Below, piece after piece: positions 5,285 through 40,466 of a stretch of 64,000 bases of DNA. Numbering within the stretch: position 1 is the first letter of the stretch; every line of letters starts with the position of its first letter. The stretch is from a virus. A program made the translations under genes and the position numbers. A model generated the notes under the pieces. That model saw nothing but the letters and a program-made list of their open reading frames with translations. It made no database searches and had not been told where the DNA came from. The stretch lies in IMG/VR virus record IMGVR_UViG_3300029305_003442; one strand, written 5' to 3'.

Positions 5285-5318
5285 TAAAAAAATAATTGAG
5301 ATAAAGGAGATATATATT

Positions 5319-5492: not shown

Positions 5493-5493
5493 T

Positions 5494-22605: not shown

Positions 22606-22627
22606 TCAATAAAGGAGGTTATAAGAT

Positions 22628-23242
22628 ATGATAACCAATCCGGTTGATTATTACAATAAAATATTATAGATAAAAGATTTAAATAAACCTCAATATGCGC
22701 TTTTGCTTCCAACAGATGAAACAATTTATGATATTGATTTATCTACAAGAGAAGTTAAAGCACCTAAATTTTTAAGTTTACACAAAGATCATTATGCGGA
22801 AACCATTTATTTTAAAGTTGATAGATTTTTTGATAATATGGATTTAGCAGATACAGTTTGTACTATTTAGTATGTAAATGATGGTGTAAAAAAACTTACA
22901 GGTGAAGCTGATGCGGGTCGCATTTATTTAGTACCATTTTTTGATATTTTTACATATCGTGATGACAATAAAATGCTTATTCCTTGGCAAATTAGTGGTT
23001 TAGTAGCTAGAGCTCCTGGTAATATAACCTTTTCATTTAGATTTTATAAATTAAATGAAACAGGAGATTTTATTTATTGTTTAAATACTTCTCCTGCTAC
23101 AAGTAAAATTCTTAATGGATTAGATTTAAAACTTCCAGAAAATGATGAAGGTTATATGGAAGCAGGAATTGTAGATGATATTTATCATTAGATAGATATT
23201 GTGAGTAAAGCTACTGATTTATATTGGATTGAAGTTGAATAA
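22628..23242 (+). CDS. Hypothetical protein (204 aa) sharing a DRFFD-containing N-terminal domain with the preceding gene (paralog)
   Basis: AAAGGAGG SD; ATG 22628; frame 2 with track ORF 22973-23191; TAA 23240-23242; AETIYFKVDRFFDNMDLADTV vs AEIVFFSIDRFFDAVDFGAPE in 20701 gene. Confidence 0.5.
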
Positions 23243-23246
23243 AAAT

Positions 23247-23275
23247 TTGACATAAATAAAAATTTATGTTATAAT
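23247..23275 (+). promoter_or_regulatory. Perfect consensus sigma-70/sigma-A promoter
   Basis: TTGACA (23247-23252) - exactly 17 nt - TATAAT (23270-23275), 35 nt upstream of ATG 23310. Confidence 0.6.
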
Positions 23276-23309
23276 AATATAAAAGAAAAGAAAGGTTAGG
23301 TATTTAATT

Positions 23310-23615
23310 ATGGCAACTACTTTAACAATTAATTATTCTGTAAATGGAGTAGAAAAGAATCTTATATTAACTGAAATTACTAGATGTTCTGAAGATTTTA
23401 AATCTGAATATGTTTCTTTAAATATTTCTTGTAATGATATTGTTGAAAATAGTATTTTAGGTGAATTAATGAATTCTATAATTTCTGATATCATTTTTAT
23501 AGAAGACTCTGAAACTACCACTTTTACTAATTATACTCGTCTTTATAATATTAATCGTTCTTATAAAGGTGAAGGTTCTTCTTTAACTTTTAATTTAAGA
23601 GAATATTTTAATTAA
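23310..23615 (+). CDS. Hypothetical protein (101 aa, no TAG), first gene after consensus promoter
   Basis: Track ORF; TAA stop. Confidence 0.5.
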   Translation: MATTLTINYSVNGVEKNLILTEITRCSEDFKSEYVSLNISCNDIVENSILGELMNSIISDIIFIEDSETTTFTNYTRLYNINRSYKGEGSSLTFNLREYFN

Positions 23616-23651
23616 TTTATTAAATTAAAATGAATAAAGGAGGAATAATTT

Positions 23652-24821
23652 ATGGCAGCTGATGATAAAATATTAGCAACGTAGATTAGTACAAATTCTT
23701 CTTCCTGGTATCAAAGATTAAGAGCTATTTAGGCAAATAATAAAACAGGTATAGGCGGGTCTGCTTTATAGCAGACCGCCGACCCTGGTATCACTTCAGG
23801 AACGAAGATGACAGCAACACATATTAATAATTTTATTAATGCTTTAACAGCTTTAAAATCAAATGTATTTTTAGCTTATGCGGATTGGACTAATTATACT
23901 CCTTCTACTGTTTCTAGTGGTGGAAAAGCTAATGCTTCTACTACATAGACTAAAATTAATAATATGTTAACATCACTAGAAAGTATATGTAGTAATTGTT
24001 AGACATATAGTACAAATAGTTATTCTAATACTTGTTCAAATAATGCTACAACTAGTTATTCAACCTATTCGGAAAGTATTGATAAATATAATTATTCTAA
24101 TACATGTAAAACTACTTATAATTCCACAGAATCTACAAACTCTACTTGGAGTGAAAGCTGTAAAACAACTTCTAATAGTACTAATAGCTATTGTTCTGAT
24201 GCTAATTGTAGCGCTTATAGCGAGAATGAAACTTGTGCAGAATTTTATGTTGGTAATAGCACTTATTCTACAGATAGCACTAGCTCAAATTCTACTTATG
24301 GAGTTGGAGATTCTACTTAGGCAACAGATGCTACTTCTGTTTGTGCTACTTTATCAACTTATAATGATGAAATATCTTATAGTACAGATTGTAGTGATGG
24401 TTGTTGGGATTGTACTTTTCATTCTTATTGTCCTGCAGCTGAAGTAGCTACTTATAGCGTCGGAGAGTGTTCAACTAATGCTACTAATTCTGAAAATTCA
24501 ACAGAAGGAGTTTGTAGCACTTGTAGTACTAATTCTACTGATTTTTATTGTAATGAAAACTCTTGTACTGAACATACAAATAGAGGTACATATTCAAATC
24601 ATTCACAATGTAGTACTTATGGAAAAAACAGTACATATAATGATACTTGTCAAACTTGTGAGACTGATTCAACCACATCAAATACAACTTATACTTAGTC
24701 AAATTCTACATATACTAACACTAATGATGGTTATAGTACATATTCAAAAAAAGCTACATATGGAACATATACTAATACAAGTGGTAATTCAACATATTAG
24801 ACTTATACGGTAAAAAATTAA
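23652..24821 (+). CDS. Cys/Ser/Thr/Asn/Tyr-rich low-complexity protein (389 aa, 22 Cys, 9 in-frame TAG); candidate substrate of adjacent radical-SAM enzymes
   Basis: AAAGGAGG SD; ATG 23652; frame 3 verified codon by codon to TAA 24819-24821 with only TAG interruptions. Track ORFs 24043-24447 and 24478-24813 are other-frame shadows of this low-complexity gene. Confidence 0.6.
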
Positions 24822-24851
24822 TTGAAATGAGATAAAGGAGAAAATATTTTA

Positions 24852-26210
24852 ATGTTACAAGATAGAGAAACAATTATTTTATATACTACAGCAGTATGTA
24901 ATTTAAATTGTACTTATTGTTTTATTGATAAAAATCCAAGTTTAAAAAAGATAGATCAATGGCTTGATGATAGTTTTTTAAAAACTCCAGATTATTATTT
25001 TGAATATGCAAAAAAAGCCGTTTTACAAGAAAAACTAAAAGAAGTATAGATTTGGGGTGGAGAACCTTTTTTGGGTATGCATAGAGCCTATGCAACAATA
25101 GATAAATTTATTAATTATTTTCCAAATTTAAAAAATTTTATGACTTCTACAAATTTTGTATCTCATTGTTTTTTTGAAGAATTTTATGGACTTCTTGATA
25201 TTTTTAGAAAGCATCCAAATAGAAATTTTACATATAGTTTATAGTTATCATTAGATGGTGTAAAGGAAATAAATGATATTAATAGAGGTAATGGAGTTAC
25301 TGATCGTTTTATTATTAATTTTGAAAAATTTGTTAAAGAATTACAAACTTTATTACCAAACAATTTAACATTAAAAATGCATTTAAAGCCCACTATTGAT
25401 ACAAATTCTTTGAAAAAATTATAGACTAAAGAACAAGTTTTTGAACAATTTATCTTTTTTGAAAGCTTCAATGAAGTATATTTGAAATATAATAAAAAAA
25501 ATAATTTACTATTTTCACTTCCAATTCCTAATACAGCTTGCCCATCTCCTCATACTCAAGAAGATGGAATAATGTTTGCAAATTATTGTAAAATAACAAG
25601 AGAGCTTGAAAAAGAAAATAAAAATAATAAAATTTTTAAATTTTATAATAATATTACAAGCTTTACTCCAAGAAGAAAAATTCAATATGACAAACTTTCA
25701 TTATCAGGATATTGTCAAGGTCATTGTGGTAATGGAAAAAGAGCTATTGGTCTTTTACCTAACAATATGGTTTCTTGTTGTCATAATGGTTTTGTTGATT
25801 TGCTAGCTGAATATAAAAAGAATGTATTAACAAATAGTGAACATATGGATAATGTTACTATTGAAAAAAGTTTATTTAAAAATAAACGTAATACTTTAAT
25901 TTTCCCTTATGATAGTAAAGAATTTGAAATGTATCAAAAACAATTAGAAGTTTTTTATCAAAATGATGATACTGCCAAAATTTCTAATTGTGCTTCTTTA
26001 ATTAAATTATTGGCTGATTTTGAACAAATTGATAAAAAATATCAAGATAAAAAAGAAGCTGTTAAAGGTGCTTATTTTATTTTTAATACTACATCATATT
26101 GTGTTAGAGATAATTTAGGTGTGACTGGAAGCATCTATATGTATCCTGTTGGTTTAATTAAATTATTGCTAAATGGAGCTAGAGAATATATTGAGGAAGG
26201 ATGTAATTAA
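24852..26210 (+). CDS. Radical SAM / SPASM-domain enzyme #1 (452 aa, 3 in-frame TAG)
   Basis: AAAGGAG SD; CNLNCTYC (CxxxCxxC) at residues 16-23; IWGGEPFL; SLDGVKEINDINRG (anSME-like). C-terminal Cys cluster CPSPH...CQGHCGNGKRAIGLLPNNMVSCCHNGF consistent with SPASM/twitch auxiliary cluster. Track ORFs 24852-25049 and 25482-26210 share frame 3. Confidence 0.75.
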
Positions 26211-27599
26211 ATGGCAAAGTGTTTAAATTTTTAGGAAGAAAAAGATGTTATTTTATGGTCATTAATTAATGATACATTTGGAAGACTTTTTTCTAAAGAA
26301 AAAAAAGAAGATATTGAACATGATATGGGGTTAGAAATTTATATAACCCCTGAATGTAATTAGAATTGTTCTTATTGTTATTTATGTAAAAATGGTGATG
26401 AACTTTATCCTAAAGAATTAAGAAATCCTACAATAATTTTAAATAATTTAAAAATTATGTTAGATTATTGTATTGATAATAATTGGAATCCTGGAAGATT
26501 TGATTTTTTTTCTGGAGAAATTTGGGATACTGATTTAGGTTATAATGTTTTAAGCATTACAGAAGAAGCAATAGAAAGAGGTTTTCACCCTAGACTAATT
26601 GTAATTCCATCAAATTTTAGTTTTATTTTAAATGAAGAAGCTAAAAATAGAGTTGAAAAATTTATGGAAAAATGTAGACAATTTAATATAAAGCCATGTT
26701 GGTCTTGTTCTAATGATGGTTTATTGTTAGATTTAGAGACAAGACCATTTAATTCAGATGAATTAAATGCAAAAAAAGATACTGAAGATTATTATAAAAA
26801 ATTATTTGAATTTTGTAAAAAATGGAATTTAGGTTTTCATCCAATGGTGGCAGCACACGGAATTGAAAAATGGTCAGAAAATTTTTTATGGTGGATGTCA
26901 GAATTAAAGAAATATAAATTTGAAAGAAATTCTTCAATAATGTTTTTAGAAGTTAGAAACGATGATTGGACAGATGATAAAATTTATCATTATTTAAAAT
27001 ATTTAAATACTAGTATTAATTATTTAAATGATGAATGTATTAATTTAAATACATTGTCTTTTGAAGATTATGTTAGAAAAACTAATAAAAATATTAAATA
27101 CAATTATACACCTGTTATTTTAGAAAAATCAAGTTTATAGCCTGGATGCACTATTCATAGATCTTTAGTTATTCGTTTAGGTGATTTAGCAATAGTTCCT
27201 TGTCATAGAACTTCTTATGAAGAATTTATTATAGGACATTTTAAAGTAGAGAATAATAAAATTATAGGAGTTACAGCTAAAAATATTCAAATAATGAATT
27301 AGGTATGGCTAAATAATATGAGTGGTAATGCTAAATGCACTAATTGTCCTTATAGCAATTACTGTATGAAAGGATGTTATGGTTCTTAGTTTGAATCTAC
27401 TGGAGAATTATTATATCCAATAGAATCAGTATGCAATTTATATAAAGCAAGAGCAATATTTATTTTTTATAAATATTTAAAAATGGGTATTTATAGAGAA
27501 GATAATCCCGAGGATAAAAAATATTTTGATTTTATTCAATCAATTAAAGATACGAAGGAGTTTAAAAAATGGTACAAAATTGTTTAGGAATTGATTTAA
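26211..27599 (+). CDS. Radical SAM / SPASM-domain enzyme #2 (462 aa, 4-5 in-frame TAG)
   Basis: ATG immediately after upstream TAA (translational coupling); ITPECN(Q)NCSYCY CxxxCxxC; C-terminal CTIHRSLVIRLGDLAIVPCH...AKCTNCPYSNYCMKGCYG SPASM-like Cys motifs; frame 3 with track ORF 26457-27140; TAA 27597-27599 if TAG 27585 is read through. Confidence 0.7.
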
Positions 27600-28168
27600 T
27601 TAATATTTATGAAAATCTTATCATAAATGGATTAAATGTAGAATTAGCAAAAGATATTGAAAAATATTTGATTTATTTTTTAGACAATAACACTAATGAA
27701 AATTAGTTATTATTATATAATTTATTAAATATTTTAAAACGTCAATAGAATACATCAATTCTTCTAAATTTTTTAATTCAAGAAGTTGAATTAAAGTTAT
27801 TAAGATTAAGTTTTTCTAATAATGATATAAAAAATAATAAAGATTGTTATAATATTTCATCTTGTCAAAAAAATGAATCTAAAGAAGAATTAAAGAAAAT
27901 TTTAAAAGTAACTAATAAAGATTTATTCCCTCCAAAAGGGACTACAACTCGTATTATTAATAAAAGAAAAGAAGAAAATGAAGAACATGAATATGTTTTA
28001 GAGATAGATGATCAAGGTAATGTTTTAGAAATTTTAGAACATTATATAACAAAAAATGATGCAGATTCTATTGATATATTAAATGATTCTCCTTTAAGCA
28101 AACTTAAAGAAAAATATCTTAAAGAAGATAAAGAAAATAATTCTTTAACAGAAAATGATTTAGAATAA
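27569..28168 (+). CDS. Hypothetical helical protein (199 aa, 2 TAG) within rSAM cassette
   Basis: AAGGAG SD 27555-27560; ATG 27569; frame 2 to TAA 28166-28168. Confidence 0.45.
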
Positions 28169-28193
28169 TATTAATAATTTAAATATTTCTAAA

Positions 28194-29270
28194 ATGGGAT
28201 TAGGAATTATGCGTCATAATTCTAATCAACAATATACAAAACAACTAATAGAATATGCTTTAAATAATAAAATTAATTATTTTGAAGCTTGTGATTTCTA
28301 TTTACAAAACGCTTGTGAAATACGTCTTGGGGATGCTTTAAAATAGCATCCTCGGACTTCATATAAATTATGTGATAAACTTCCATTATCTACAATTCCT
28401 TATTTTATTCAAAAAAATAAAAATTGGAATTTAAATGATTATTTTAATAATCAATTAGCAAAATGTAGAACTGATTATTTTGATGTTTATTTGATTTAGG
28501 CTTTAGATGAACGTAATTTTAATTACTTGGAAAAATATCAAATTATTGATTTCTTTTTAAAACAAAAAGAACAAGGAAAAATTAAATTATTGGGTTTTTC
28601 TTTTCATGGAAAAGTTGATATTTTAAAAAAATTATTAGAAATGAAATGTTGGGATATCGTTTAGTTTCAATTAAATTATTATGATTGGATTTTAGGTGAG
28701 GCGAAAGAATTATATTTTTTAACAAAAGAATATGATTTACCTATTATTACAATGGGACCAACTAAAGGCGGATTATTAATAAATAATTTACCTAAAAAAT
28801 CATTAGATAGATTAAAAGAAAACAATATTAATCCAGTCTATTTATGTTATTCTTTTTTAGAAACTTTAGACAACGTTAAAATTATTTTATCAGGAGCAGA
28901 AACTTATGAAATGATTAAAGATAATTTAAATTATTTTGAAAATGAATCTCATAAATTAACTCCAGAAGAGTGGTAGCATATTAAACAAAATATTCAAGAT
29001 TATCAAGAATAGAGTTTAATTCAATGTACGGGATGTCGTTATTGTGTTCAAAGATGTCCTGCTAATTTACCAATAGATAAAATTTTTAAAGAATATAATA
29101 ATTTTATTCAATCTAAAGATTTATAGTCAAGAGAATTTTTATATTAGAATATTCATAGTTCTAACTCTACACAGAATTGTAAAAATTGTGGTCAATGTGT
29201 AAAAATTTGTCCGCAACATTTAAATATTCCAGAAATTTTTCATAAACAAATTTTCCCAGTAAGGAGATGA
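28194..29270 (+). CDS. Aldo/keto-reductase-family oxidoreductase fused to C-terminal 2x[4Fe-4S] ferredoxin domain (358 aa, 8 TAG)
   Basis: ATG 28194 in frame 3 with track ORF 28752-28976; C-terminal CTGCRYCVQRCP and CKNCGQCVKICP ferredoxin motifs; TGA 29268-29270. Confidence 0.6.
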
Positions 29271-29274
29271 AAAA

Positions 29275-29685
29275 ATGGTAGTATCTGAATTAGTAGCTAC
29301 AATTTTTCAAGTTTGTATAATTCCATTATTGGGTGTATTAACTACTTTTTTTGTAAAATGGGTTAATTCCAAAAGCGCAGAAATCTCAAATAAAATTGAT
29401 GATGAAACATTAAATAAATATTTAAATATGCTTACTGAAACAATTAATACTTGCGTTTTAGCAACCAATTAGACATATGTTGAAAGTTTAAAACAACAAG
29501 GAAAGTTTGATGCGGAAGCGCAGAAAGAAGCATTTAATTTAACTTGTTCAGCAGTAATGGATATTTTAAGTGAGGACGCAAAAGAATATTTAACTTCTGC
29601 TATTGGAGATTTACAAATTTATATTACAAAGAAAATTGAAGCTGAAGTACATACAAATAAAGTTACACCTTGTGTAAATCAATAA
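29275..29685 (+). CDS. Putative holin (136 aa; N-terminal TM helix then amphipathic region), LL-H/phiLC3-holin-like
   Basis: AAGGAG SD; MVVSELVATIFQVCIIPLLGVLTTFFVKW TM segment; one in-frame TAG 29470-29472; TAA 29683-29685; last gene before terminator. Confidence 0.5.
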
Positions 29686-29695
29686 AATAAATATA

Positions 29696-29735
29696 GGGGA
29701 ACCTTTAGTATAATCTAAAGGTTCCCCTTATTTTT
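29696..29735. terminator. Bidirectional rho-independent terminator between convergent holin (+) and LytTR regulator (-) genes
   Basis: GGGGAACCTTT-agtataatct-AAAGGTTCCCC with T-runs on both sides (TTATTTTT on +; TATATTTATTTT on -). Confidence 0.6.
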
Positions 29736-29742
29736 GTTTATA

Positions 29743-30447
29743 TTAAATTCTATTATAAGTAAGCCAACGTTCACGAATTAAATCATGAGATTTTTTGGGA
29801 AAATATAATACTTCATCATTTTCAAAAGTTAAATGGTCAGTATCAATAATCTTAATTTCACTTAAATTAATCAATAAACTTGGTGCTAAAAATAAAAATT
29901 GCGGATGTTGGTTCAATGGAGTTATTGCTTTTTCAAAAGATGAGCGCAATGACTAACCATCAAACATTGTTCCATTTTTTAAATGATAACATAAACAACG
30001 TTTTACAATGTTAATATAATTAACTTGACTTGAGCGTATTCTTCTTTCACCTTCCGCAGTTTTAATTACCAAACTATCTTCTCTTATCTCTTTTTTAATT
30101 ATATTAAATAATTCAAACAATTCTTCTTTTTCTATTGGTTTTAAAAAATAATGATCTGCATGCACTTTATAAGCAGGATAAGCGAGAGAAGGATCTTCTC
30201 CAATAAAAATAAAATAACTATTTGGGTCTATTTTATCCATGCGATGACTTAACTCATATAGATTTTCTGATGAATCAGTGTCCATAATATAAACATCAAA
30301 ACTTGCAGGAACAACAAGTAAATCTTCTGATTTATCAAAAATTGATACTTTTGCCACAGACTTAGATTCTATTAAATATTCTTGAATCATCTCACGCAAT
30401 TCATTTAAATATGTTTTGTTGTCATCATAAATAGCAATAGAGAGCAT
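29743..30447 (-). CDS. LytTR-family two-component response regulator (REC + LytTR DNA-binding domain; AgrA/ComE-like), orphan; one in-frame TAG at 29953-29955
   Basis: Track ORFs 29953-30447 and 29743-29949 are the same frame separated by TAG+1 codon; REC features (IAIYDDN, VYIMDTD, YFLKP) and LytTR pattern (IKTAEGERRIRSSQVNYINIVKRCLCYHLKNGT...FLFLAPSLLINLSEI); AAGGAGG SD. Confidence 0.7.
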
Positions 30448-30482
30448 ATTTAAACTCCTCCTTTAAAATTTTTTACAATATT

Positions 30483-30511
30483 ATTATAACATAAATTTGT
30501 GAGAAAATCAA
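30483..30511 (-). promoter_or_regulatory. Consensus sigma-A promoter for LytTR regulator gene (member of repeated promoter family)
   Basis: Minus strand TTGATT-17-TATAAT (fwd aatcaa 30506-30511 ... attata 30483-30488). Confidence 0.5.
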
Positions 30512-30759
30512 ATTTTTTTGTGTAAAAAGTGTAAAAAATTTTAATTTTTGAGTATTTGATTTTTAAATTTACTTTTTGACATTCGGATTTTAAAAATAAA
30601 ATTGTAATTTTGAAAAATTGAATAAAAATTGTAAGGATGAAAAATCAGACAAAAAATGTGTGAGTGTTTCTTGTTTAAAAATCTGAAACAATTTTTATAT
30701 AGTAATGGAAGGGTAAGAGAAAAATAAAAAAAATGAATAAATACCTTGGAGGTGAATAT

Positions 30760-31236
30760 ATGAATTATCAATATAATCAGTAGCAGGTGAGTCCACCGCA
30801 GAATTAGACGACTCAGCAGTATTCTTACCAACGACAAGTTCCTTATACTTCTGGAACTTGGAATGCGAGAGTCAGACCGGTTTCTTCAATTGAAGAAGTA
30901 AGAGCATCTTCAATTGATTTTGATGGCTCAATTTTTTATTTCCCAGATGTTGCTAATAAAAAAATCTATACTAAATTTATTAATTTAGATGGCTCTGTGG
31001 CAATTAATGTATATGAGTTAAAAGAAATGCCAACAGGTTAGGCAGCAGATTCATCTTACATTACAAGAGAAGAATTTGAAAACGTAATTATGTAGTTAAA
31101 AATGATGTATAATAATTCTTCTGCGCCTTCTACTCCAATAGAAGAATAGCAATAGGTATAGTAGTAGATGAATAGTAATTAGTTTGCGGCACCACCCGCA
31201 CAATAGCAACATAATGTTTCGCCATTACAATTTTAA
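30760..31236 (+). CDS. Gln-rich protein (158 aa, 11 TAG codons clustered in poly-Q tracts)
   Basis: GGAGGTG SD; ATG 30760; frame 1 verified to TAA 31234-31236; GAA-TAG-CAA-TAG-GTA-TAG-TAG-TAG-ATG and CAA-TAG-CAA runs. Confidence 0.55.
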
Positions 31237-31249
31237 GGAGGTATGAAGA

Positions 31250-31495
31250 ATGGCACAAGTTGATCCGAGACAATTAATAGCTATGATTAGAAATGGTCAA
31301 AATCCTCAACAACTTATGTTAAGTGTTTTAGAGACGATGCAAGATACTCCTTTTGGAGCCAATTTATTGAATCTCGCTCGCAATGGTTAGACTGCGGAGA
31401 TTGAAAAAATTGCTCGGAATATCACATCTCAAAGAGGTATGGATTATGATAAAGAGTTTAATGCCTTTAAACAATAGTTTTTTGGCTTTAAATAA
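31250..31495 (+). CDS. Small hypothetical protein (81 aa, 2 TAG)
   Basis: GGAGGT SD; ATG 31250; TAA 31493-31495. Confidence 0.45.
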
Positions 31496-31532
31496 ATAAA
31501 ATATTTTTTTTAATTAAAGGAGGGTTTCTTTT

Positions 31533-32327
31533 ATGTTTAATTCTAATGGTTACAGTTTGGCAGATATCGTTGCCGCAACAGGTGGCGGTAGAGAGAATTG
31601 CGGCGGCTTCGGCGGCTGGGGCGGAGATGGATGGTGGATTATCCTCTTATTCTTGCTCTGGGGTAACAACGGCTGGGGCGGCAATCAAGGTGGACGTGGA
31701 ACAGTTCGTGAAGAAATTGCTTATGGTTTTGATATGAACGGTTTAGAAAATAGCGTCCGTGGTGTTCAGCAAGGTATTTGTGATGGTTTCTATGCCATGA
31801 ATACTGGTATGTTAAATGGATTTAGTAACATTCAAAATACTCTATGTCAAGGTTTCTCTGGTATCAATCAAGGTACAGCTCAGTAGACATTTGATTTATC
31901 TACTCAGTTACATGGTATGGCAGCTGATAATGCGGCTTGTTGCTGCGAAACTCAGCGCGCTATTGAAAGAGGATTTGCTGAAACCAACTATAACATGGCA
32001 ACTCAAGCTTGCGATACTCGTAGAGCAATTGCTGATAGCACTCGTGATATTATTGACAGTAATAACGCAGGTGTTCGTTCTATTTTAGATTTCTTAACTC
32101 AGGATAAGATTGCTACTCTTACCGCAGAAAATCAGAGTCTAAAATTCGCAGCTTCTCAGGCAGCTCAGAACGCTTTCATTGCAGCTAATCAGGAAGCTCA
32201 AACCGCAGAACTTATTCGCAGACTTGATACCCCATGTCCTATTCCCGCTTATGTAGTTCCTAATCCTAATTGTTGCTATCCATCTTATGGATATGGGTAT
32301 GGCAACACTGGATGCTGCGGTGGTTAA
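31533..32327 (+). CDS. Gly/Trp-rich membrane protein with Cys-rich C-terminus (264 aa; GGFGGWGGDGWWIILLFLLWGNNGWGG ... CCYPSYGYGYGNTGCCGG); GC-rich codon usage
   Basis: AAAGGAGGG SD; track ORFs 31533-31886 and 31917-32327 same frame joined by one TAG. Confidence 0.55.
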
Positions 32328-32352
32328 TTAACAAAGGAGGTAAAAAATCTGT

Positions 32353-32772
32353 ATGGAAATTATTGCTAATGCTTTATAGACAGTTCCAGCAAATCAGACT
32401 GTTTATTTCACAGATACCGCCGTATGCGGTGGCCCATCTATGACTCATAGAGCTGGTAGTGGTTTAATTACTCTTAGAGGAATTACTAATCAATGTAGAG
32501 CAAGATTCCGCATCACTTTTGGAGCAAATATTGCTGTTCCAACAGGAGAAACAGTTGGACCAATTTCATTGGCTATTGCGATAGAGGGTGAACCTCTTCA
32601 AGCTACTATAATGATTGAAACACCAGCGGCTGTTGAAGAGTTCTCAAATGTTTCAAGAACTACCTTTATTGATGTTCCTCGTGGATGTTGTGTAAGTGTA
32701 AGTGTAAGAAATGTAAGTGATATTCCAGTAAATGTACAAAACGCAAACTTAATTGTTGAACGTGTTGCTTAA
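32353..32772 (+). CDS. C1q/TNF-like jelly-roll protein resembling BclA C-terminal / spore-appendage (DUF3992-like) domains (139 aa, 1 TAG)
   Basis: AAAGGAGG SD; ATG 32353 in frame with track ORF 32440-32772; alternating beta-strand pattern, CC pair near C-terminus (PRGCCVSVSVRNVS). Confidence 0.45.
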
Positions 32773-32790
32773 TGAAAGGAGGTCTTATAA

Positions 32791-33438
32791 ATGGAGAAAA
32801 GATTAGAACATATGAAAGAATCTTTAATGGCTTGCGTTGAAAGTCAATTAACTCATTTAGATACAGTTGATACTAAAGAATTAGGTGAAGCCATTGATAT
32901 GATTAAAGACCTTGAAGAAGCAATCTATTATTGTACTATTACAAAAGCAATGAAGGAACAGGATAAAGGAGAAAAAGAATCTCATAAATATTATCCAGTA
33001 ATGTATAATAGAGATATGGATAGAGATATGGGAAAAATGTATTATGAAAACCCAAATTATATGGGTGGTAATGATACAAAACGTCAATATTCATCTGGAA
33101 ATGGAGGAGGCAACTCCTCCTCCATGAGTAATTCTTCTGGAAGCGGAGGAGGTAATTCATCCTCTGGAAATACTGGTTCAAAACAATATAGTGAAACAGA
33201 ATATAATTTAATGCGCGACCAGCGTGAAGGACGTAGTCCTCAGTCGCGCCGCATGTATATGGAATCAAAAGAAATGCATTCAGATAAAGCAACTCAAATG
33301 CGTGAATTAGAAACTTATATGCAAGAGTTAACTCAAGATGTAGTTGAAATGGTTGAAGGTGCAACTGTTGAAGAAAAGCAGTATTTAAGTAAACGAGTAG
33401 CAGCTCTTGCAAACAAATTGGCTCAATTAAATGATTAA
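32791..33438 (+). CDS. Hypothetical protein (215 aa) with central Gly/Ser/Asn-rich linker; no TAG
   Basis: AAAGGAGG SD; track ORF. Confidence 0.5.
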   Translation: MEKRLEHMKESLMACVESQLTHLDTVDTKELGEAIDMIKDLEEAIYYCTITKAMKEQDKGEKESHKYYPVMYNRDMDRDMGKMYYENPNYMGGNDTKRQYSSGNGGGNSSSMSNSSGSGGGNSSSGNTGSKQYSETEYNLMRDQREGRSPQSRRMYMESKEMHSDKATQMRELETYMQELTQDVVEMVEGATVEEKQYLSKRVAALANKLAQLND

Positions 33439-33694
33439 CATTAATGGTGAACAATGGAGAGTGTTTTTAACCTCTCCATTTCACCCTGCTTTAAAACGCA
33501 GTGATGGTGCTTATACTCTAGGATGCTGTGATGATGTAACAAAAACAATTTATATAAGTAATGATGTAAGTGATAAATATTTAAAAAAAGTTTTATGCCA
33601 CGAACTCACTCACGCCGCAATGTTTAGCTACAACGTAGATTTGACTTATGAGCAAGAGGAAGTTCTCGCTGATATTATAGCAACATATGGATAG
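33431..33694 (+). CDS. Small HExxH metallopeptidase-like protein (87 aa; HELTHA), ImmA/IrrE- or SprT-like
   Basis: Track ORF; overlaps upstream stop; CHELTHAAMF motif. Confidence 0.45.
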   Translation: MININGEQWRVFLTSPFHPALKRSDGAYTLGCCDDVTKTIYISNDVSDKYLKKVLCHELTHAAMFSYNVDLTYEQEEVLADIIATYG

Positions 33695-33763
33695 GAAATT
33701 ATTCATATGGCAAATCTTCTCTTTAAGAGGTTAAAAGATGAAAGAGAAGAAGAAAGAAAAAAT

Positions 33764-33800
33764 GGGAGTATCTAATAATTTAGATACTCCCATTTTTTTT
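33764..33800 (+). terminator. Rho-independent terminator ending the + strand island
   Basis: GGGAGTATCTA-ataatt-TAGATACTCCC followed by TTTTTTTT. Confidence 0.6.
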
Positions 33801-33801
33801 G

Positions 33802-34239
33802 TTATATATTACAATCTCGTACTTCTAACTTCATCGCACTTTCATAATAATTTTTAGCTTGACCATTGCCGCCCAAAGAAGTATATAATTTATAAAATTC
33901 AGTTAATTGGTCATACTAGTCGGGAGTCATAAATCCTTGTCTAATAAATCCTTTGCATAATTGAACTAAACGGAAACGATAAGAAGAAATAATTAAATTC
34001 ATGTGATTCTTTTCTACTTGACCCACATTATAGATATAAGACCTTAATTCTTCAAGCTCCTATTGAATTGGTTCAATTTTACTGTCAATTGTTTCATTCA
34101 ATTTGTCAGTCTCTTGGTCTGCTAAAAGCTTTTTATAATTTTTCATTTGACTATGCATATATTTACAAAAAGCTAAAGCACCAGCAGAAATTAAACCAAA
34201 AATAATTTCAATGAAATGTTCAGTTAAAAAAGCTAACAT
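33802..34239 (-). CDS. Small membrane protein with N-terminal TM helix and coiled coil (145 aa, 2 TAG); BhlA/UviB/XhlA-like lysis-accessory candidate (low confidence)
   Basis: ATG 34239 (SD AAAGGGGA); frame verified to TAA 33802-33804; 438 nt = 146 codons. Confidence 0.4.
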
Positions 34240-34305
34240 TATAACAAATCCCCTTTCTTAAAATTTTTTCTCACACTATATCAATTTTAAGTAAGGGGAT
34301 TTTAT

Positions 34306-34797
34306 TTATTCAGACCAATCAAATGATTTTGCCTAAGAGTTTAGATACCAGTGACCAATACATATTGCGTCACTTTCATCTTCTGTAGCTTGTTTATTAT
34401 AAAGCGTTTTTATTAATAACTAAGCTTCTTTTTTCTACTCTGGACGAGTTCTACTTTTTATACCGATTTTACTTTTCCATACTGTAGCTAATACAGCTTC
34501 AACTGGTATATCTAATTCTACAATCAATTCATAAATAACACCAAATACTTCTGCTAATGTTTTAAAGGTTTGAACATTTCCTGTTACATTAGATTGAAGT
34601 TGTATATCTTCCATTATAACTTTATTAATAGAATAAGTATCAATTAATTGATGAACATTTTTTCTAATATTAAGCAATCTATCTCCTAAATCGGATTGAT
34701 TACAAGTAAAATGTCCATAATCAATTAATTGATTATCTTCAAATATAGCATATCCAGTTATTTTAGAAGACTAATCTAAAGATAAGATTCTGCTCAT
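34306..34797 (-). CDS. RuvC-like Holliday-junction resolvase (163 aa) with 4 in-frame TAG
   Basis: MSRILSLD(Q)SSKITGYAIFE N-terminus and DAICIGHWYL C-terminal motif; ATGA overlap with dut stop; track ORF 34435-34677 is its middle. Confidence 0.6.
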
Positions 34798-35489
34798 ACT
34801 GATTCAAAAACATCTGCTTTTAATCCAAGAGAATTAAAAACATCAAGTAATTTTTCATCAATTTTAATTTCGTTATTTAAATTAATTGATTGTAAAGAAG
34901 TAGAACCAAATCCGCCTGTTCGTAAGCCAATAGCTACATCATCTTCAATGGTATAATAAGGTTTAATAATTCCTTGACCAATAATATCTCCTCGTTTTAA
35001 TTGAATATCAAATGGAGATAAATTAATTAATTGAAAGAAAATTTCACCTTCATTATCAGGATTATTATAATAATCAGCGTCAATAATACCAACTCCATTA
35101 GCAAGAATAAGCCAATATTTTAAAGGAGTAGAAGACCGCACGCTTAATTCAAGATAAGTATTTGGAAGTAATTCACATTTCATTCCAGTAGAAACTAAAG
35201 AAGGTTTAATTTTTGATGCTTTAGTAACAGCGGCAACATCTTCAAGAGTATAAGGTTTACTCATCTTTTGCGCAAGCTCATATTCAGCCTTCTTCTTTTC
35301 TTCTGAGTCAATTACATTCTAATGTAATTGGAATAGTTCATATCTACCAAGCCAATTCAATTCTTCAGAACAAGATGGAATTATAATATCTTCAGCTACA
35401 ACAAAATCATATCCAGCGCTCTGTTCTGTTTTTCTAATTGGTAAAGGTAAATCAATATCATTAAATCTACTTACTTTTTCAAATTTCAT
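34794..35489 (-). CDS. dut: dUTPase with extended N-terminal region (231 codons, 1 in-frame TAG at 35319-35321)
   Basis: Motif 1 SAGYDF in upstream segment (ATG 35489), then GIIDADYYNNPDNEGEI, GDIIGQGII, RTGGFGSTS in track ORF 34794-35264; both segments same frame. Confidence 0.7.
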
Positions 35490-35734
35490 TATTCTACCTC
35501 ATAATTAATATTAACAAAACTTATCGGGTCTTTTTCATCATTGAAATGTTTGTTTAAAGTAACTTTATACCAACTATCAATAACTGCACCTTTAGATTTT
35601 CTTTCTTTAAATTCACTAGAATATTTTGCTAATGAAAATTCAGTAGCATTCTTAGCTTCATCAATAATTTCTTTTACTTCATTTTCATTATCTACTCTAT
35701 ATACTTCAATTGTACTTACAAGATATTTTGACAT
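35489..35734 (-). CDS. Hypothetical protein (81 aa)
   Basis: Track ORF; TAATG overlap with dut start. Confidence 0.45.
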   Translation of the reverse strand: MSKYLVSTIEVYRVDNENEVKEIIDEAKNATEFSLAKYSSEFKERKSKGAVIDSWYKVTLNKHFNDEKDPISFVNINYEVE

Positions 35735-35735
35735 T

Positions 35736-35996
35736 TTAATTTACCTCAATATTAATTTTTTTAGTATTATAATTTTTTACATTATACATTTGAATATCTT
35801 CAATAAAACCTTCAAGATATCCTTCATTACCATATAGGTGAATATTGTATATATCATATGTATAACAACTACTAACAATTACTTCTGCTAAATTATCAAT
35901 AGTTGTTGAAGCTATTTCTCGCTTACCATTATCATCATAAATAAATATATACTAATCAGTATTAAATAAATTAACTGAACTAACAATATAACTCAT
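35736..35996 (-). CDS. Hypothetical protein (86 aa, 1 TAG)
   Basis: ATG 35996 adjacent to upstream TAA; verified 87 codons to TAA 35736-35738. Confidence 0.4.
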
Positions 35997-35997
35997 T

Positions 35998-36396
35998 TTA
36001 TCCTCCATATGAAACCATTAAACCTTCACAATCAAATAAGCACATACATAAATTTTCATCTTCATTTGTCCGCACCCAAATTTCAATTGTATCAGAAGCT
36101 TCCATATAATCAACAGTAATAATCTTACCAATATCTAAAGCGCAAGTAAGAACTGCTTTTCCTTTATTTTCAAAATCCGATTCGTTTGCTTTTGGATAGA
36201 AAATAGTATAATAAGAAATTTCTTTACATAAAAGCATTAAATTTGAATAATTTTTCATTTTATCATTAATTAATTCAATATAAGGGTCTATATTATCTGC
36301 TATTGGAAGCTATGAAACAATAGATTTATTTAAATCATATAGATTCATAGAAATATTTCCATAATCTTTAGATTCTTTTTTTAAATTACACTTCAT
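35998..36396 (-). CDS. Hypothetical protein (132 aa, 1 TAG at 36310-36312)
   Basis: ATG 36396 with AAAGGAGA SD; in frame with track ORF 35998-36258. Confidence 0.45.
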
Positions 36397-36426
36397 TATT
36401 TATCTCCTTTTTTATTTTATATAATA

Positions 36427-36455
36427 ATTATATCATATTTTTTTATTTTTGTCAA
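36427..36455 (-). promoter_or_regulatory. Perfect consensus promoter TTGACA-17-TATAAT on minus strand (overlaps nrdG stop)
   Basis: fwd tgtcaa 36450-36455, attata 36427-36432. Confidence 0.55.
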
Positions 36456-36915
36456 GATAAATAATACGTTGATTGCGGCTTCCTCTCATAGGAAGTGTAA
36501 TGTCTCTTTCAGCTTCAATATAAGGTCCATCAATTAAACAAGTAATTAATTCTAAAATTTCTTTTATATTTGGATTATGAGGTAAATCATCGTAAGTATA
36601 CCCTGTCCATAAATAAATTTCTGTATCTGGTAATTTTTCTTTAACAGTTTTTATTACCAATAAAGTCAAAAAAGTATTTTCAGGACATAAAGGTTCTCCA
36701 CCCAAAATACTTAAAGAACGCTTAATACCATTAGCTTGAAGAGCTTCAATTATTTCATTAATTACATCAGTAGTAAATTCTAGTCCTCCGTCATAATCCC
36801 AAGTTTCGGGATTATGACAGCCAAGACAATGATGCGGACATCCTTGAGTATAGAAAGAAACTGATACACCAGTTGCCGCAGAAAAATCATTTTTAATTAA
36901 ACCTGCATATCGCAT
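36433..36915 (-). CDS. nrdG: Anaerobic ribonucleotide reductase activating protein (radical SAM)
   Basis: GCPHHCLGCHNPETW CxxxCxxC motif; 160 aa. Confidence 0.8.
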   Translation of the reverse strand: MRYAGLIKNDFSAATGVSVSFYTQGCPHHCLGCHNPETWDYDGGLEFTTDVINEIIEALQANGIKRSLSILGGEPLCPENTFLTLLVIKTVKEKLPDTEIYLWTGYTYDDLPHNPNIKEILELITCLIDGPYIEAERDITLPMRGSRNQRIIYLDKNKKI

Positions 36916-37544
36916 TATTCTTCCTCCTCTAAGTCTAAATCATGAACATCATCTGGATTAGCTACTTCGTAATAAAATATACATCTACAACTGGGATGAT
37001 ATGGTGGGAGATTAACATCTTCATCTGGCGGATATTCTCCGCCTTCACACATATCACATCCACTTTCAATTACTAATAAAGTAGCATTAATAGGTCTTTT
37101 ATTTTTCTTTACTGCATTTTCTACATTTTTAGTTTCTGTATTTAAAATTCTTTCAAATTTATAAACTAAATTATCTCTTATTTCTTTATAAGTTTTTTCT
37201 TTTAAAATATCTTGTCTTGTCTCTTCCCAAATTAAAGACAATCTATCTTGAATTGTTTTTCCATCTTCTTTATAAGTTAAATCAAAGATATTTTTGATAT
37301 TAAATTCTTCTACTTCTTCATATAATTTTTCTATATATTTACTTGTAATAAGATATGTTTCAGTTAATGATTCATAAAATAAATCTTCAATTTTTTTATA
37401 TGCTTTATCCCAAAGTTTAATATTAAAATTATTTGAATATTCTCTGACAGCTTTTAAAGATTTATTTATAATTTTTTCAAAATATTTATCTTTAGATTCG
37501 TCAATTAAATCTTCTAATTTAAGTATTTCTTTTCTGATACTCAT
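36915..37544 (-). CDS. Hypothetical protein (209 aa) inserted between nrdD and nrdG; C-terminal CxxC...HPSCRC zinc-binding motif reminiscent of Mu F/SPP1 gp7 C-terminus
   Basis: Track ORF; GCDMCEGGEYPPDEDVNLPPYHPSCRCIFY. Confidence 0.45.
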   Translation of the reverse strand: MSIRKEILKLEDLIDESKDKYFEKIINKSLKAVREYSNNFNIKLWDKAYKKIEDLFYESLTETYLITSKYIEKLYEEVEEFNIKNIFDLTYKEDGKTIQDRLSLIWEETRQDILKEKTYKEIRDNLVYKFERILNTETKNVENAVKKNKRPINATLLVIESGCDMCEGGEYPPDEDVNLPPYHPSCRCIFYYEVANPDDVHDLDLEEEE

Positions 37545-37549
37545 AACAA

Positions 37550-39841: not shown

Positions 39842-39911
39842 TAATAAATCCTCCGAAAATATTAATTTGGGGCGACCCTATTATATTTAATAGTTGTTTT
39901 TTTATGGTTAA

Positions 39912-40466
39912 TTACTTCTGCCCAATGATGCTTAAAATTGTCTTTACGTTCTTCATTAAGTCTAATGTATTATCATTTTGTAATTCAATATATTCAAAAG
40001 GTAAATCTGAAAAATCTTTTTTATCAGTTCCATAACGTCTAACAATTTCATCAACATTTGGTTCATCTTCTCTATTTAATTGTCTTAAAAGTCTTTGTTT
40101 ATCAGAAGCTTTTATATAAAAAATAGTTACATCAATTTGAGGGTCTGATAGTAAAAATTCAACACGAGATGGGTCAAATACTCCTATATTTATAACATCT
40201 GAACGTAAACATTCATAATCAGTTCCATAAAACCAATCATTAAAAGTTGCCATTTCTACTAATTCATTATTAATAGCTTTTTGCGCAAATTGCTCTGGTG
40301 TTATAAAATAGTAATTAATACCTTCAATTTCATTATCTCTACGAGGACGTGTAGTATAACTAATAATAGAATGAACATCATTAGTATTTTCTAAAATCAT
40401 TCTTAATAATGTATCTTTACCAGAACCAGATTGCCCAATTAAAGCAATTATTTTATACTTCTTCAT
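39912..40466 (-). CDS. Guanylate-kinase-family nucleotide monophosphate kinase
   Basis: IALIGQSGSGKDTL P-loop; TTRPRRDNEIEGINYYFI guanylate-kinase signature. Confidence 0.6.
   Translation of the reverse strand: MKKYKIIALIGQSGSGKDTLLRMILENTNDVHSIISYTTRPRRDNEIEGINYYFITPEQFAQKAINNELVEMATFNDWFYGTDYECLRSDVINIGVFDPSRVEFLLSDPQIDVTIFYIKASDKQRLLRQLNREDEPNVDEIVRRYGTDKKDFSDLPFEYIELQNDNTLDLMKNVKTILSIIGQK

What the first reader, a model, noticed from the sequence alone, without database searches (positions are those of the whole stretch)
29743..30759. Orphan LytTR (AgrA/ComE-like) response regulator at the late/early boundary with direct repeats in the divergent intergenic region
A complete REC+LytTR regulator (with one TAG) is encoded with its own consensus promoter. 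No histidine kinase or autoinducer-peptide gene is in the window. The 310-nt region between it and the divergent + strand island contains direct repeats (GTGTAAAAA x2 at about 30518-30537; AAATTGTAA / AAATTGAAT / AAATTGTAA at about 30595-30630) upstream of weak -10-like elements before gene 30760. This suggests the phage plugs into a host peptide quorum-sensing kinase (Agr/Com/Fsr-like) to time expression of the cargo island or lysis.
Basis: inference. Interest (0 to 1): 0.7.

Follow-up and report, generated by a model that had tools for sequence, protein, structure and literature searches.

The report
Phage LytTR regulator with 27-bp repeat array
A gut phage that reads the TAG stop codon as glutamine carries a conserved AgrA/ComE-like DNA-binding regulator with a worn-down signal-receiving half, placed next to an array of 27-bp repeats that most likely lets it switch on a neighbouring six-gene operon; nothing found here shows it listening to bacterial quorum signals.

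Summary
Window 29743-30447 (- strand) encodes a 234-aa protein with one in-frame TAG at an invariant Gln. Its AlphaFold model (pLDDT 89.7) matches full-length ComE and the AgrA LytTR domain. It has a near-consensus promoter, no kinase nearby, and real repeats in the 312-nt spacer.

The interpretation needs revision:
- **Not recent cargo.** The gene belongs to a phage-only family (305 relatives found, none in 185,579 bacterial or archaeal genomes). It sits in the same syntenic slot in every related locus examined.
- **Eroded receiver pocket.** 0 of 115 family members keep the canonical five residues, and 37 of 115 have no acidic residue at the Mg2+ site. Obligate phosphorylation by a host kinase is therefore unlikely.
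- **Different repeat architecture.** This array is found in 11 loci and is the strongest short-period repeat in the window. It is not the 9-bp/12-bp (21-bp) LytTR pattern.
- **Layout.** The array spans from about -45 of the regulator's promoter to about -45 of a divergent promoter with a weak -35. That promoter drives a six-gene, TAG-rich operon. Two bidirectional terminators bracket the whole module.

Best reading: a self-contained, suppression-gated activator/autoregulator module. DNA binding is inferred, not shown. It is a new variant of a known kind, of moderate interest.

The parts
29743..30447 (-). Regulator gene, 234 aa: REC-like domain (about residues 1-120) plus LytTR domain (about 125-232). 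Monocistronic.
   Evidence: ORFs. AF2. Foldseek ComE/AgrA. phrog_8810. Same 234-aa gene call in a same-phage contig.
29953..29955 (-). In-frame TAG (codon 165), read as Gln.
   Evidence: Q in 114/115 homologues. Window-wide TAG recoding. 9 of 11 orthologues carry 1-5 TAGs.
29695..29728 (.). Bidirectional intrinsic terminator between the holin gene and the regulator gene (left border of the module).
   Evidence: 14-bp stem, 7 GC pairs, T-runs on both strands.
30455..30461 (-). Ribosome-binding site of the regulator (GGAGGAG).
   Evidence: Sequence. AGGAGG is conserved in all 11 loci.
30483..30511 (-). Regulator promoter: TTGATT, 17-nt spacer, TG-n-TATAAT.
   Evidence: Scan, 10/12 with TG. TTG and the -10 are invariant or nearly so in alignment A2.
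30514..30675 (+). Array of six same-strand 27-bp units. Cores: GTGTAAAAA(GTGTAAAAA) at 30520, TTGAGTA at 30548, TTGACAT at 30576, TTGTAAT at 30602, TTGTAAG at 30629, GTGTGAGTG at 30658.
   Evidence: TRF periods 28 and 27. Lag-27 autocorrelation. 27-nt register print-out. Homologous arrays of 3-6 GTG-core units in relatives. Top periodic region of the window.
30658..30666 (+). Promoter-proximal unit core GTGTGAGTG, about -50 to -45 of the island promoter. It is the most conserved element of the spacer.
   Evidence: TCAC is invariant in all 11 loci. It is the best hit in the whole window for a PWM trained only on relatives (15.2 bits).
30674..30703 (+). Island promoter: weak -35 (TTTAAA/TTAAAA), 17-18 nt spacer, -10 TATAGT (30698-30703).
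   Evidence: Scan, 9/12. The -10 position is conserved, and is TATAAT in L005, L006 and L009.
30707..30719 (+). Conserved leader GGAAGGGTAAGAG downstream of the island -10.
   Evidence: Alignment A2.
30760..31236 (+). Island gene g1 (158 aa). 11 TAG codons, Q/P/Y-rich ends, conserved core VRPVSSIEEVRA..IDFDGS.FYFPD. Function unknown.
   Evidence: No Pfam, PHROG or PDB match.
31250..31495 (+). Island gene g2 (81 aa), function unknown.
31533..32327 (+). Island gene g3 (264 aa): Gly/Trp-rich N-terminal membrane segment and Cys-rich C-terminus. phrog_16490.
   Evidence: Paired with g4 in Ceridwen and Dulem virus 33.
32353..32772 (+). Island gene g4 (139 aa): C1q/TNF-type jelly roll resembling the BclA C-terminal domain, ExsFA and BxpB. 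phrog_20016.
   Evidence: AF2 pLDDT 88. Foldseek TM 0.7-0.78. At least 7,996 related clusters.
32791..33438 (+). Island gene g5 (215 aa), helical with a Gly/Ser/Asn-rich middle. Function unknown.
33431..33775 (+). Island gene g6 (114 aa), HExxH metallopeptidase-like (weak M78/SprT/DUF6782 matches). phrog_1233.
33755..33800 (.). Bidirectional terminator ending the island operon and the converging early block (right border of the module).
   Evidence: 20-bp stem with T-runs on both strands. No terminator inside the island.

Best explanation
The 4.1-kb stretch 29695-33800 is a self-contained regulatory module of a TAG-recoded phage that probably infects Firmicutes. It lies between two bidirectional terminators.

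Its regulator is a phage-specific, divergent member of the AgrA/ComE/LytR (REC+LytTR) fold class. It is transcribed from a near-consensus host-type sigma-A promoter. In most relatives, full-length protein can be made only once TAG is read as Gln.

Proposed mechanism (inferred). Several copies of the protein bind through the well-conserved LytTR domain to the array of same-strand 27-bp units that fills the divergent spacer. The unit nearest the island, at about -50 to -45, recruits or helps RNA polymerase at the island promoter, which has a good -10 but a poor -35. That switches on the six-gene TAG-rich operon g1-g6. The unit at about -45 of the regulator's own promoter provides autoregulation.

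The REC half is an atypical receiver. It more likely mediates oligomerisation or a non-canonical input than obligate phosphotransfer from a cognate kinase.

Shown: the fold, family distribution, synteny, promoter and terminator layout, the array with its conservation and uniqueness, erosion of the REC pocket, and TAG gating. Inferred: DNA binding to the array, activation, autoregulation, and independence from phosphorylation.
For: Fold: AF2 pLDDT 89.7; Foldseek hits ComE 4cbv E 4e-13, AgrA LytTR 4g4k TM 0.80, 3d6w.

Family: 305 relatives (best 120 listed, 51-99% identity), all from metagenome sources. No relative in 185,579 GTDB genomes. Identical synteny (NrdD...RuvC | island | regulator | holin) on contigs of 32-186 kb.

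Domain conservation: LytTR half 81% mean column identity against 63% for REC.

Spacer: conserved blocks in 11 loci. Units lie at fixed offsets from the regulator's -35 (+8, +35, +62, +89/91, +118, +146). Lag-27 autocorrelation z=18 with a harmonic at 54, and z=8.3 for the window alone. Lag 27 or its double is the top or near-top lag in nearly every locus, including the window's own clade. GTG outnumbers CAC 56 to 7 on the island strand.

Locality: a PWM trained without the window finds its three best hits in the whole 64 kb inside this spacer. The spacer is the most periodic region of the window.

Promoters and terminators.

TAG gating: 9 of 11 orthologues carry TAGs, including codon 10 in three of them. 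Island TAG density is 16.5 per 1000 codons, like late genes (13.4) and unlike early genes (2.6).

Precedent for geometry: AgrA direct repeats sit upstream of the divergent P2 and P3 promoters, which have suboptimal spacers (PMC4227749).
Against: No experiment links the protein to the array. The link rests on adjacency, co-conservation and locality.

The 27-bp period is not a multiple of the helical repeat. It differs from every LytTR site architecture I know of, which have a 20-22 bp centre-to-centre spacing.

The unit cores are degenerate in the window's clade (TTG instead of GTG in four of six units).

D56 (112/115) and K103 (107/115) are strongly conserved, so some phosphorylation-like chemistry cannot be excluded. 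The window's copy keeps D8, D9, D56 and K103, with only G83 deviating.

The loci are related, so the shuffle statistics overstate independence.

Only 64 kb, plus about 8 kb from a same-phage contig, of a genome that is probably longer (related contigs reach 121-186 kb) was inspected. A second set of sites or a kinase could lie elsewhere.
Confidence: 0.55

Rival explanations
1. First reader's model. The protein is an orphan but functional response regulator that a host Agr/Com/Fsr-type histidine kinase phosphorylates on D56. Host cell density would then time expression of the island, or lysis.
For: D56, K103 and P104 are almost invariant, and the window's copy also has D8 and D9. LytTR regulators are the usual output of peptide quorum-sensing systems. 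Phages can carry agr components: Ruminococcus phage NatCom_29429 encodes AgrB, a REC-LytTR regulator and a GHKL kinase, and phiCDHM1 carries agr genes (PMC3901668, listed).
Against: 0 of 115 members have the canonical D/E-D-D-S/T-K quintet. 37 of 115 have no acidic residue at either Mg2+-site position, and 43 of 115 (including the window) have Gly at the T/S switch position. Yet the proteins are otherwise 50-74% identical and syntenic, so the shared function cannot depend on canonical phosphotransfer. The REC half is the less conserved half. The family has no close bacterial counterpart whose kinase-docking surface it could mimic. There is no lag-21 site pair.
Confidence: 0.17
2. The array is not the regulator's target. 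The protein acts elsewhere, either on host LytTR-controlled promoters (for example bacteriocin, competence or lrgAB-type genes) or on phage promoters outside the window. It might also act as a decoy that titrates a host kinase. The 27-bp array would then be bound by another factor or simply shape DNA structure.
For: The repeat period and core do not resemble known LytTR sites. The sites are very A/T-rich. Only part of the genome was searched.
Against: Across 11 loci the terminal units keep fixed distances to both promoters of the regulator/island pair, while the number of units varies. The motif is confined to this spacer in 64 kb. No other DNA-binding protein is evident in the module.
Confidence: 0.18
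3. The array is an iteron-type replication origin or a packaging (pac/cos) recognition region that happens to lie beside the regulator gene.
For: Iterons and terminase-binding sites are also tandem direct repeats in A/T-rich DNA.
Against: Cumulative GC skew peaks at 32-34 kb. The region is therefore where the two gene blocks converge, which is terminus-like rather than a skew minimum. No initiator or terminase gene is adjacent. The units are positioned relative to promoter elements.
Confidence: 0.04

Closest known systems
AgrA and the agr P2/P3 divergent promoter region of Staphylococcus aureus
   Same: Two-domain REC+LytTR fold. The regulator gene sits on one side of a divergent spacer and the target transcript on the other. 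Same-strand direct repeats lie upstream of both promoters, and the target promoter has a defective -35/spacer (PMC4227749).
   Different: There are no agrB, agrD or agrC partners. The receiver pocket is degenerate. The spacer holds 4-7 units at a 27-bp period instead of two pairs of 9-bp repeats 12-13 bp apart. The regulator is monocistronic. Sequence identity to the PDB matches is about 16-19%.
ComE of Streptococcus pneumoniae (PDB 4cbv)
   Same: It is the best full-length structural match (E 4e-13). It binds tandem direct repeats with its LytTR domains in a head-to-tail arrangement (PMC4005675).
   Different: ComE sites are two 9-bp repeats with a 12-mer linker, and it is activated by ComD phosphorylating D58. 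Neither feature is found here.
Phage-borne agr systems
   Same: A LytTR-type signalling component carried by a Clostridia phage. The NatCom regulator is a distant homologue (24% identity).
   Different: NatCom_29429 has canonical Pfam scores, an adjacent GHKL kinase and AgrB, and TTGGCACGAA x2 at 21-bp spacing. The window's family has none of these.
Atypical (phosphorylation-independent) response regulators, e.g. HP1043, ChxR, NblR (from general knowledge)
   Same: REC fold retained with incomplete active-site residues, and no cognate kinase.
   Different: Those examples carry winged-helix (OmpR-type) DNA-binding domains and are chromosomal. I found no LytTR-type, phage-core example in the full-text search, though only abstracts were read.
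RemA of Bacillus subtilis (LytTR-related fold, binds repetitive upstream DNA as an oligomer)
   Same: A LytTR-like DNA-binding surface used many times over on an array of poorly conserved repeats upstream of a promoter (PMC8481266).
   Different: RemA is a single-domain protein forming octameric rings, with no REC domain. It is not a homologue by sequence, and oligomerisation of the phage protein is untested.

Membership tests
LytTR-type two-component response regulator (AgrA/ComE/LytR/AlgR class) | N-terminal CheY-like receiver (REC) fold | tested here: met
   AF2 (beta-alpha)5 topology. Foldseek matches REC domains at TM 0.72-0.83. A profile of the family hits PDB REC domains, best 6m8o at E 3e-8. 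Pfam Response_reg is only 21.9 bits, below the 30.2 cut-off.
LytTR-type two-component response regulator (AgrA/ComE/LytR/AlgR class) | C-terminal LytTR DNA-binding domain | tested here: met
   Fold match to AgrA LytTR 4g4k (TM 0.80, rmsd 2.1) and 3d6w. By sequence only E=0.052, 14.2 bits, below the 22.6 cut-off. More distant relatives pass the cut-off.
LytTR-type two-component response regulator (AgrA/ComE/LytR/AlgR class) | Canonical phospho-acceptor pocket (acidic pair, Asp, Ser/Thr, Lys) | tested here: not met
   Window copy is D8 D9 D56 G83 K103. Across the family, 0/115 are canonical, 37/115 have no acidic residue at positions 8/9, and position 83 is S in 65, G in 43 and C in 6.
LytTR-type two-component response regulator (AgrA/ComE/LytR/AlgR class) | Cognate histidine kinase encoded with it | tested here: not met
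   No HisKA or HATPase_c protein other than GyrB was found in the window proteins scanned. The same holds for same-phage contigs covering window positions from about 20 kb to 41 kb and from about 49 kb to about 8 kb past the window's right end, and for +/-8-10 kb of relatives. The rest of the genome was not available.
LytTR-type two-component response regulator (AgrA/ComE/LytR/AlgR class) | Target sites are a pair of about 9-bp direct repeats 12-13 bp apart (about 21-bp period) | tested here: not met
   Autocorrelation peaks at lag 27, and lag 21 is at background (z=1.4). The same test on the phage agr locus L019 gives lag 21 with z=4.5.
LytTR-type two-component response regulator (AgrA/ComE/LytR/AlgR class) | Phosphorylation-dependent dimerisation and DNA binding | not testable with these tools
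   Needs biochemistry.
Agr/Com-type peptide quorum-sensing locus | Autoinducer precursor plus its processing or export protein (AgrB/AgrD or ComC/ComAB) and an HPK10 kinase | tested here: not met
   No AgrB or GHKL kinase hit in the scanned window proteins or in the precomputed Pfam hits of L022 and L031. Small precursor peptides cannot be excluded by these scans.
LytTR regulatory systems (HdrRM/BrsRM type) | LytTR protein without a REC domain, co-transcribed with a membrane inhibitor | tested here: not met
   The protein has a REC-fold N-terminal half. The gene is monocistronic, lying between its own promoter and the terminator at 29695-29728.
Atypical / pseudo-receiver response regulators | REC fold with an incomplete active site and no partner kinase; acts without phosphorylation | tested here: inconclusive
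   The sequence criteria are met. Independence from phosphorylation is untested, and D56/K103 conservation argues for caution.
PHROG phrog_8810 (unknown function) | Profile match over the full length | tested here: met
   E 2.4e-20, residues 3-224 against profile positions 2-236 of 245.

The most novel reading that the evidence does not exclude
The regulator would be the switch of a phage-borne 'spore-surface-like' operon. g4 has the BclA/ExsFA/BxpB exosporium fold. g3 and other island proteins are Cys-rich, like the exosporium basal-layer proteins ExsY/CotY (a comparison from general knowledge, not tested here). The g3-g4 pair sits in the moron position of temperate Clostridia phages. On this reading, the semi-degenerate receiver domain reads a host state such as acetyl phosphate, a sporulation phosphorelay or a quorum-sensing kinase. 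The phage would then decorate host spores, or itself, only in a particular host physiological state. The regulator would act by polymerising along a 27-bp-period array, a DNA-recognition mode not described for LytTR proteins.
Probability: 0.1. Interest if true: 0.8.

Novelty: new variant of a known kind. Interest (0 to 1): 0.5.

Why it matters
Transcription control in stop-codon-recoded gut phages is essentially uncharted. The current model explains late-gene timing by translation (TAG suppression) alone. This module couples the two layers. A regulator that usually needs suppression to be made sits next to a precisely organised site array and a TAG-rich operon. That gives a small, insulated, testable circuit of about 4 kb with defined promoters, sites and terminators.

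It would also extend the LytTR family in three ways: to a phage-core clade, to an eroded receiver domain, and to a multi-unit 27-bp site architecture. The protein product g4 belongs to a very large, strongly conserved family of unknown function in gut phages (at least 7,996 clusters). Knowing its regulator would offer a way in.

Finally, it corrects an attractive but unsupported 'phage eavesdrops on quorum sensing' reading.

Tried and rejected
- **Sequence-only classification.** Pfam, NCBIfam and PDB-sequence searches did not place the protein. Pfam was below cut-off, NCBIfam LytR scored 25 bits against a 375-bit cut-off, and no LytTR hit came by profile. Structure prediction was needed.
- **Close phage genomes.** A megablast search of window 22000-42000 against INPHARED gave only a 76% nrdD match to Thomasclavelia phages. 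IMG/VR gave just 2 related loci.
- **Bacterial origin or prophage.** No relative was found in 185,579 GTDB genomes.
- **Genome-wide regulon.** A PWM trained on relatives found no comparable sites elsewhere in the window. The idea that this is the general late-gene activator was therefore dropped.
- **Canonical 21-bp LytTR boxes.** Absent.
- **Replication origin.** Disfavoured by GC skew.
- **Arrays next to distant homologues.** The MT83xxxx fragments have none; those are ordinary regulator-kinase pairs at 43-52% GC.
- **Function of island genes g1, g2, g3 and g5.** No informative Pfam, PHROG, NCBIfam or PDB hits.
- **Tool limits.** The 99%-identical P0001 was used instead. Regions beyond about 8 kb past the window could not be reached.
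- **Literature.** Neither the Borges et al. preprint on recoded phages nor the phAss-1 paper mentions a response regulator or LytTR.
Full report
**Observation.** On the - strand, 29953-30447 and 29743-29949 are one reading frame interrupted only by a TAG at 29953-29955.

The window as a whole uses TAG as a sense codon. Recoding TAG raises long-ORF coverage from 47 to 68.6 kb and the longest ORF from 837 to 2076 codons. The resulting gene map matches the gene calls of a same-phage 71-kb contig. The TAG in the regulator falls on a position that is Gln in 114 of 115 homologues, so the product is a 234-aa protein.

TAG density separates three blocks:
- The + strand block 43-29685 has 13.4 TAG per 1000 codons. 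It is late and structural and ends with a holin (phrog_13712).
- The - strand block 33802-63983 has 2.6 per 1000. It is the replication block: NrdD/NrdG, dUTPase, RuvC, Pol III alpha, DnaB, RecJ, ligase and gyrase.
- The regulator and the + strand 'island' (16.5 per 1000) sit exactly where these two blocks converge.

No tRNA gene lies in the window.

**The protein.** Sequence libraries do not classify it. Pfam Response_reg scores 21.9 bits (cut-off 30.2) and LytTR gives E=0.052. NCBIfam LytR scores 25 bits against a cut-off of 375. The only confident family is phrog_8810, 'unknown function'.

An AlphaFold2 model built on 115 homologues is confident (pLDDT 89.7). It shows a (beta-alpha)5 receiver followed by an all-beta domain. 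Foldseek against the PDB gives full-length ComE (4cbv, E 4e-13) as the best match. The C-terminal half matches the AgrA LytTR domain (4g4k, TM 0.80, rmsd 2.1 A) and 3d6w.

**The receiver is eroded.** In the family alignment D56, K103 and P104 are nearly invariant. The first Mg2+-site position is Ser in 92 of 115 members. The second is Asp in 73 and Asn in 29. The Thr/Ser switch position is Ser in 65 and Gly in 43.

No member has the canonical quintet, and 37 of 115 have no acidic residue at either Mg2+-site position. The window's copy reads D-D-D-G-K. The LytTR half is more conserved than the REC half (81% against 63% mean column identity).

Members with and without an intact acidic pair are otherwise 50-74% identical and occupy the same genomic slot. 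The shared function therefore cannot rest on canonical phosphotransfer. This is an inference from established knowledge of receiver domains, not a measurement.

**Distribution.** 305 relatives were found, and the best 120 listed are 51-99% identical, all from metagenome sources. A scan of one genome for each of 185,579 bacterial and archaeal species found none.

Every context examined is syntenic: NrdD-NrdG-...-dUTPase-RuvC-x, then the island on the opposite strand, then the regulator, then the holin and late genes. The contigs are 32, 121 and 186 kb long. The regulator and island are thus a fixed core feature of this phage group, not a recent acquisition.

Nine of 11 orthologues contain 1-5 TAG codons at varying positions, including codon 10 in three loci. 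In most of these phages the regulator cannot be made until TAG is suppressed.

More distant homologues (about 25% identity) are ordinary regulator-kinase pairs. One of them, in the cultured Ruminococcus phage NatCom_29429, is part of a complete agr-like locus: AgrB, regulator, GHKL kinase, then a sigma-70 region-4 protein.

**The spacer (30448-30759).** The regulator's promoter is TTGATT, 17 nt, TATAAT with an upstream TG. It scores 10/12, the joint-highest score in the scanned region, and is conserved in all 11 aligned loci. The island's promoter has a conserved -10 (TATAGT at 30698-30703, TATAAT in three relatives) and only a poor -35.

Between the two lies a set of same-strand direct repeats. 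Relatives carry three to six units of the type aaaWtttGTGtaNNNGGAT. Their GTG cores sit at nearly fixed offsets from the regulator's -35 (+8, +35, +62, +89/91, +118, +146). Arrays therefore differ by whole units.

In the window, six 27-nt units run from 30514 to 30675. Their cores are GTGTAAAAA(GTGTAAAAA), TTGAGTA, TTGACAT, TTGTAAT, TTGTAAG and GTGTGAGTG. Tandem Repeats Finder independently reports periods of 28 and 27 here.

Statistical support:
- A motif-free 4-mer autocorrelation peaks at lag 27 (z=18 over 11 loci, harmonic at 54; window alone z=8.3). Lag 21 is at background.
- Lag 27 or its double is the top or near-top lag in nearly every locus.
- The spacer is the most periodic 170-bp stretch of the whole window at any lag from 8 to 60.
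- GTG outnumbers CAC 56 to 7 on the island strand.
- A weight matrix trained only on relatives places its three best hits in 64 kb inside this spacer.

Caveat: the loci are related, so the shuffle-based z-scores overstate independence. The within-locus periodicity and the fixed register to both promoters do not depend on that.

As a positive control, the same autocorrelation on the NatCom_29429 agr locus recovers the canonical pair TTGGCACGAA x2, 21 bp apart.

**The island.** g1-g6 (30760-33775) are co-directional with short gaps and no internal terminator. Strong bidirectional terminators close the module at 29695-29728 and 33755-33800.

g3 plus g4 also occur as a pair, after the lysis genes, in Butyrivibrio phage Ceridwen and Dulem virus 33, which carry no such regulator. 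g4 belongs to a very large and tightly conserved family (at least 7,996 clusters; the best 120 are 71-100% identical).

The g4 model (pLDDT 88) is a C1q/TNF jelly roll. Its closest matches are the exosporium proteins BclA-CTD, ExsFA and BxpB (TM 0.7-0.78), followed by phage fibre tips. g6 is a weak HExxH metallopeptidase match. The others are unassigned.

What the operon does remains unknown. It may encode surface or fibre-like proteins.

**Kinase and peptide genes.** No HisKA, HATPase_c or AgrB hit other than GyrB was found in three sets of data:
- about 32 window proteins scanned here;
- the precomputed Pfam hits of same-phage contigs, which reach about 8 kb beyond the right end;
- the flanks of relatives.

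The remainder of the genome could not be fetched.

**Mechanism.** The best-supported reading is a self-contained activator/autoregulator module. The LytTR domain binds the units. The unit at about -50 to -45 of the island promoter compensates for its poor -35. The unit at about -45 of the regulator's own promoter gives feedback. TAG suppression gates both the regulator and its targets.

This works like the agr P2/P3 divergent region (PMC4227749). It fails three membership tests for a canonical LytTR two-component regulator: pocket, kinase and site architecture.

The many-unit array recalls the way the LytTR-related RemA uses repetitive upstream DNA (PMC8481266). Oligomerisation of the phage protein is untested.

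The quorum-sensing model is not excluded, because D56 and K103 are conserved and the window's copy has the acidic pair, but it is disfavoured. The idea that the array belongs to another factor, or is an origin, is less likely given the promoter register and the GC-skew maximum at 32-34 kb.

**Novelty.** BFVD holds a single full-length REC+LytTR viral protein plus a few stand-alone LytTR proteins. The two papers checked on recoded phages mention neither term. This is a new variant of a known kind: phage-core, with a degenerate receiver and a 27-bp array. It is of moderate interest, and the key step, DNA binding, is still inferred.

Noticed in passing
window 1-64000: TAG is used as a sense codon (Gln). 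Density is 13.4 per 1000 codons in the + strand late block, 16.5 in the island and 2.6 in the - strand replication block. No tRNA gene, and hence no suppressor, lies in the window.
   Followed up: partly
window 23652-29270 (+): A 389-aa Cys/Ser/Thr/Asn-rich protein (23652-24821) is followed by two radical-SAM proteins (24852-26210, 26211-27599), a 199-aa ORF and an aldo-keto-reductase/2x[4Fe-4S] fusion (28155-29270), just before the holin. It looks like a protein- or peptide-crosslinking maturation set inside the late operon.
   Followed up: no
window 40673-45733 (-): DNA polymerase III alpha is split. The PHP/N-terminal part is at 44309-45733 and the C-terminal part at 40673-42985. A GIY-YIG/NUMOD3 homing-endonuclease gene (43303-44085) lies between them. 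A second GIY-YIG protein is at 57770-58759.
   Followed up: partly
window 31533-32772; L020 5155-6450; L021 5134-6420: Island genes g3+g4 travel as a pair in unrelated ~40-kb Clostridia phages (Butyrivibrio virus Ceridwen, Dulem virus 33). There they sit after the lysis genes, and in Dulem virus 33 just before the integrase. g4 has a BclA/ExsFA/BxpB-like exosporium fold and at least 7,996 highly conserved relatives. Several island proteins carry CC/CCC motifs.
   Followed up: partly
L019 (PV036441.1, Ruminococcus phage NatCom_29429) 5193-8732: The genes are all annotated 'hypothetical', yet they form a complete agr-like locus: AgrB (5193-5786, -), small ORFs, a canonical REC+LytTR regulator (6001-6729), a HATPase_c_5 kinase (6789-8081) and a sigma-70 region-4 protein (8289-8732). 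TTGGCACGAA x2, 21 bp apart, lies upstream of the regulator's promoter.
   Followed up: partly
window 30001-34000: The island has a higher G+C content (32-36%) than its flanks (23-27%). This fits at least part of it (g3-g4) having been exchanged horizontally.
   Followed up: no
regulator orthologues in window, L001, L010, L013, L015: TAG recurs at the same conserved Gln codons in divergent orthologues: codon 165 in the window, L013 and L015, and codon 10 in L001, L010 and L013. Whether this is ancestry or recurrence is unresolved.
   Followed up: no
L031 1-9650 (same phage, beyond the window's right end): Upstream of the window's truncated gyrase A gene lie GyrB, RNase H, a 543-aa Amidase_2/VgrG3-C-like hydrolase, PhoH (PIN+PhoH) and a flotillin/Band_7 protein.
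   Followed up: no
window 37550-39841; H1/H2 (Thomasclavelia phages TR-TP1/TP2): The anaerobic ribonucleotide reductase gene is the only stretch of window 22000-42000 with nucleotide-level similarity (76%) to any INPHARED phage. Both hits infect Thomasclavelia ramosa, which is a weak hint about the host.
   Followed up: no
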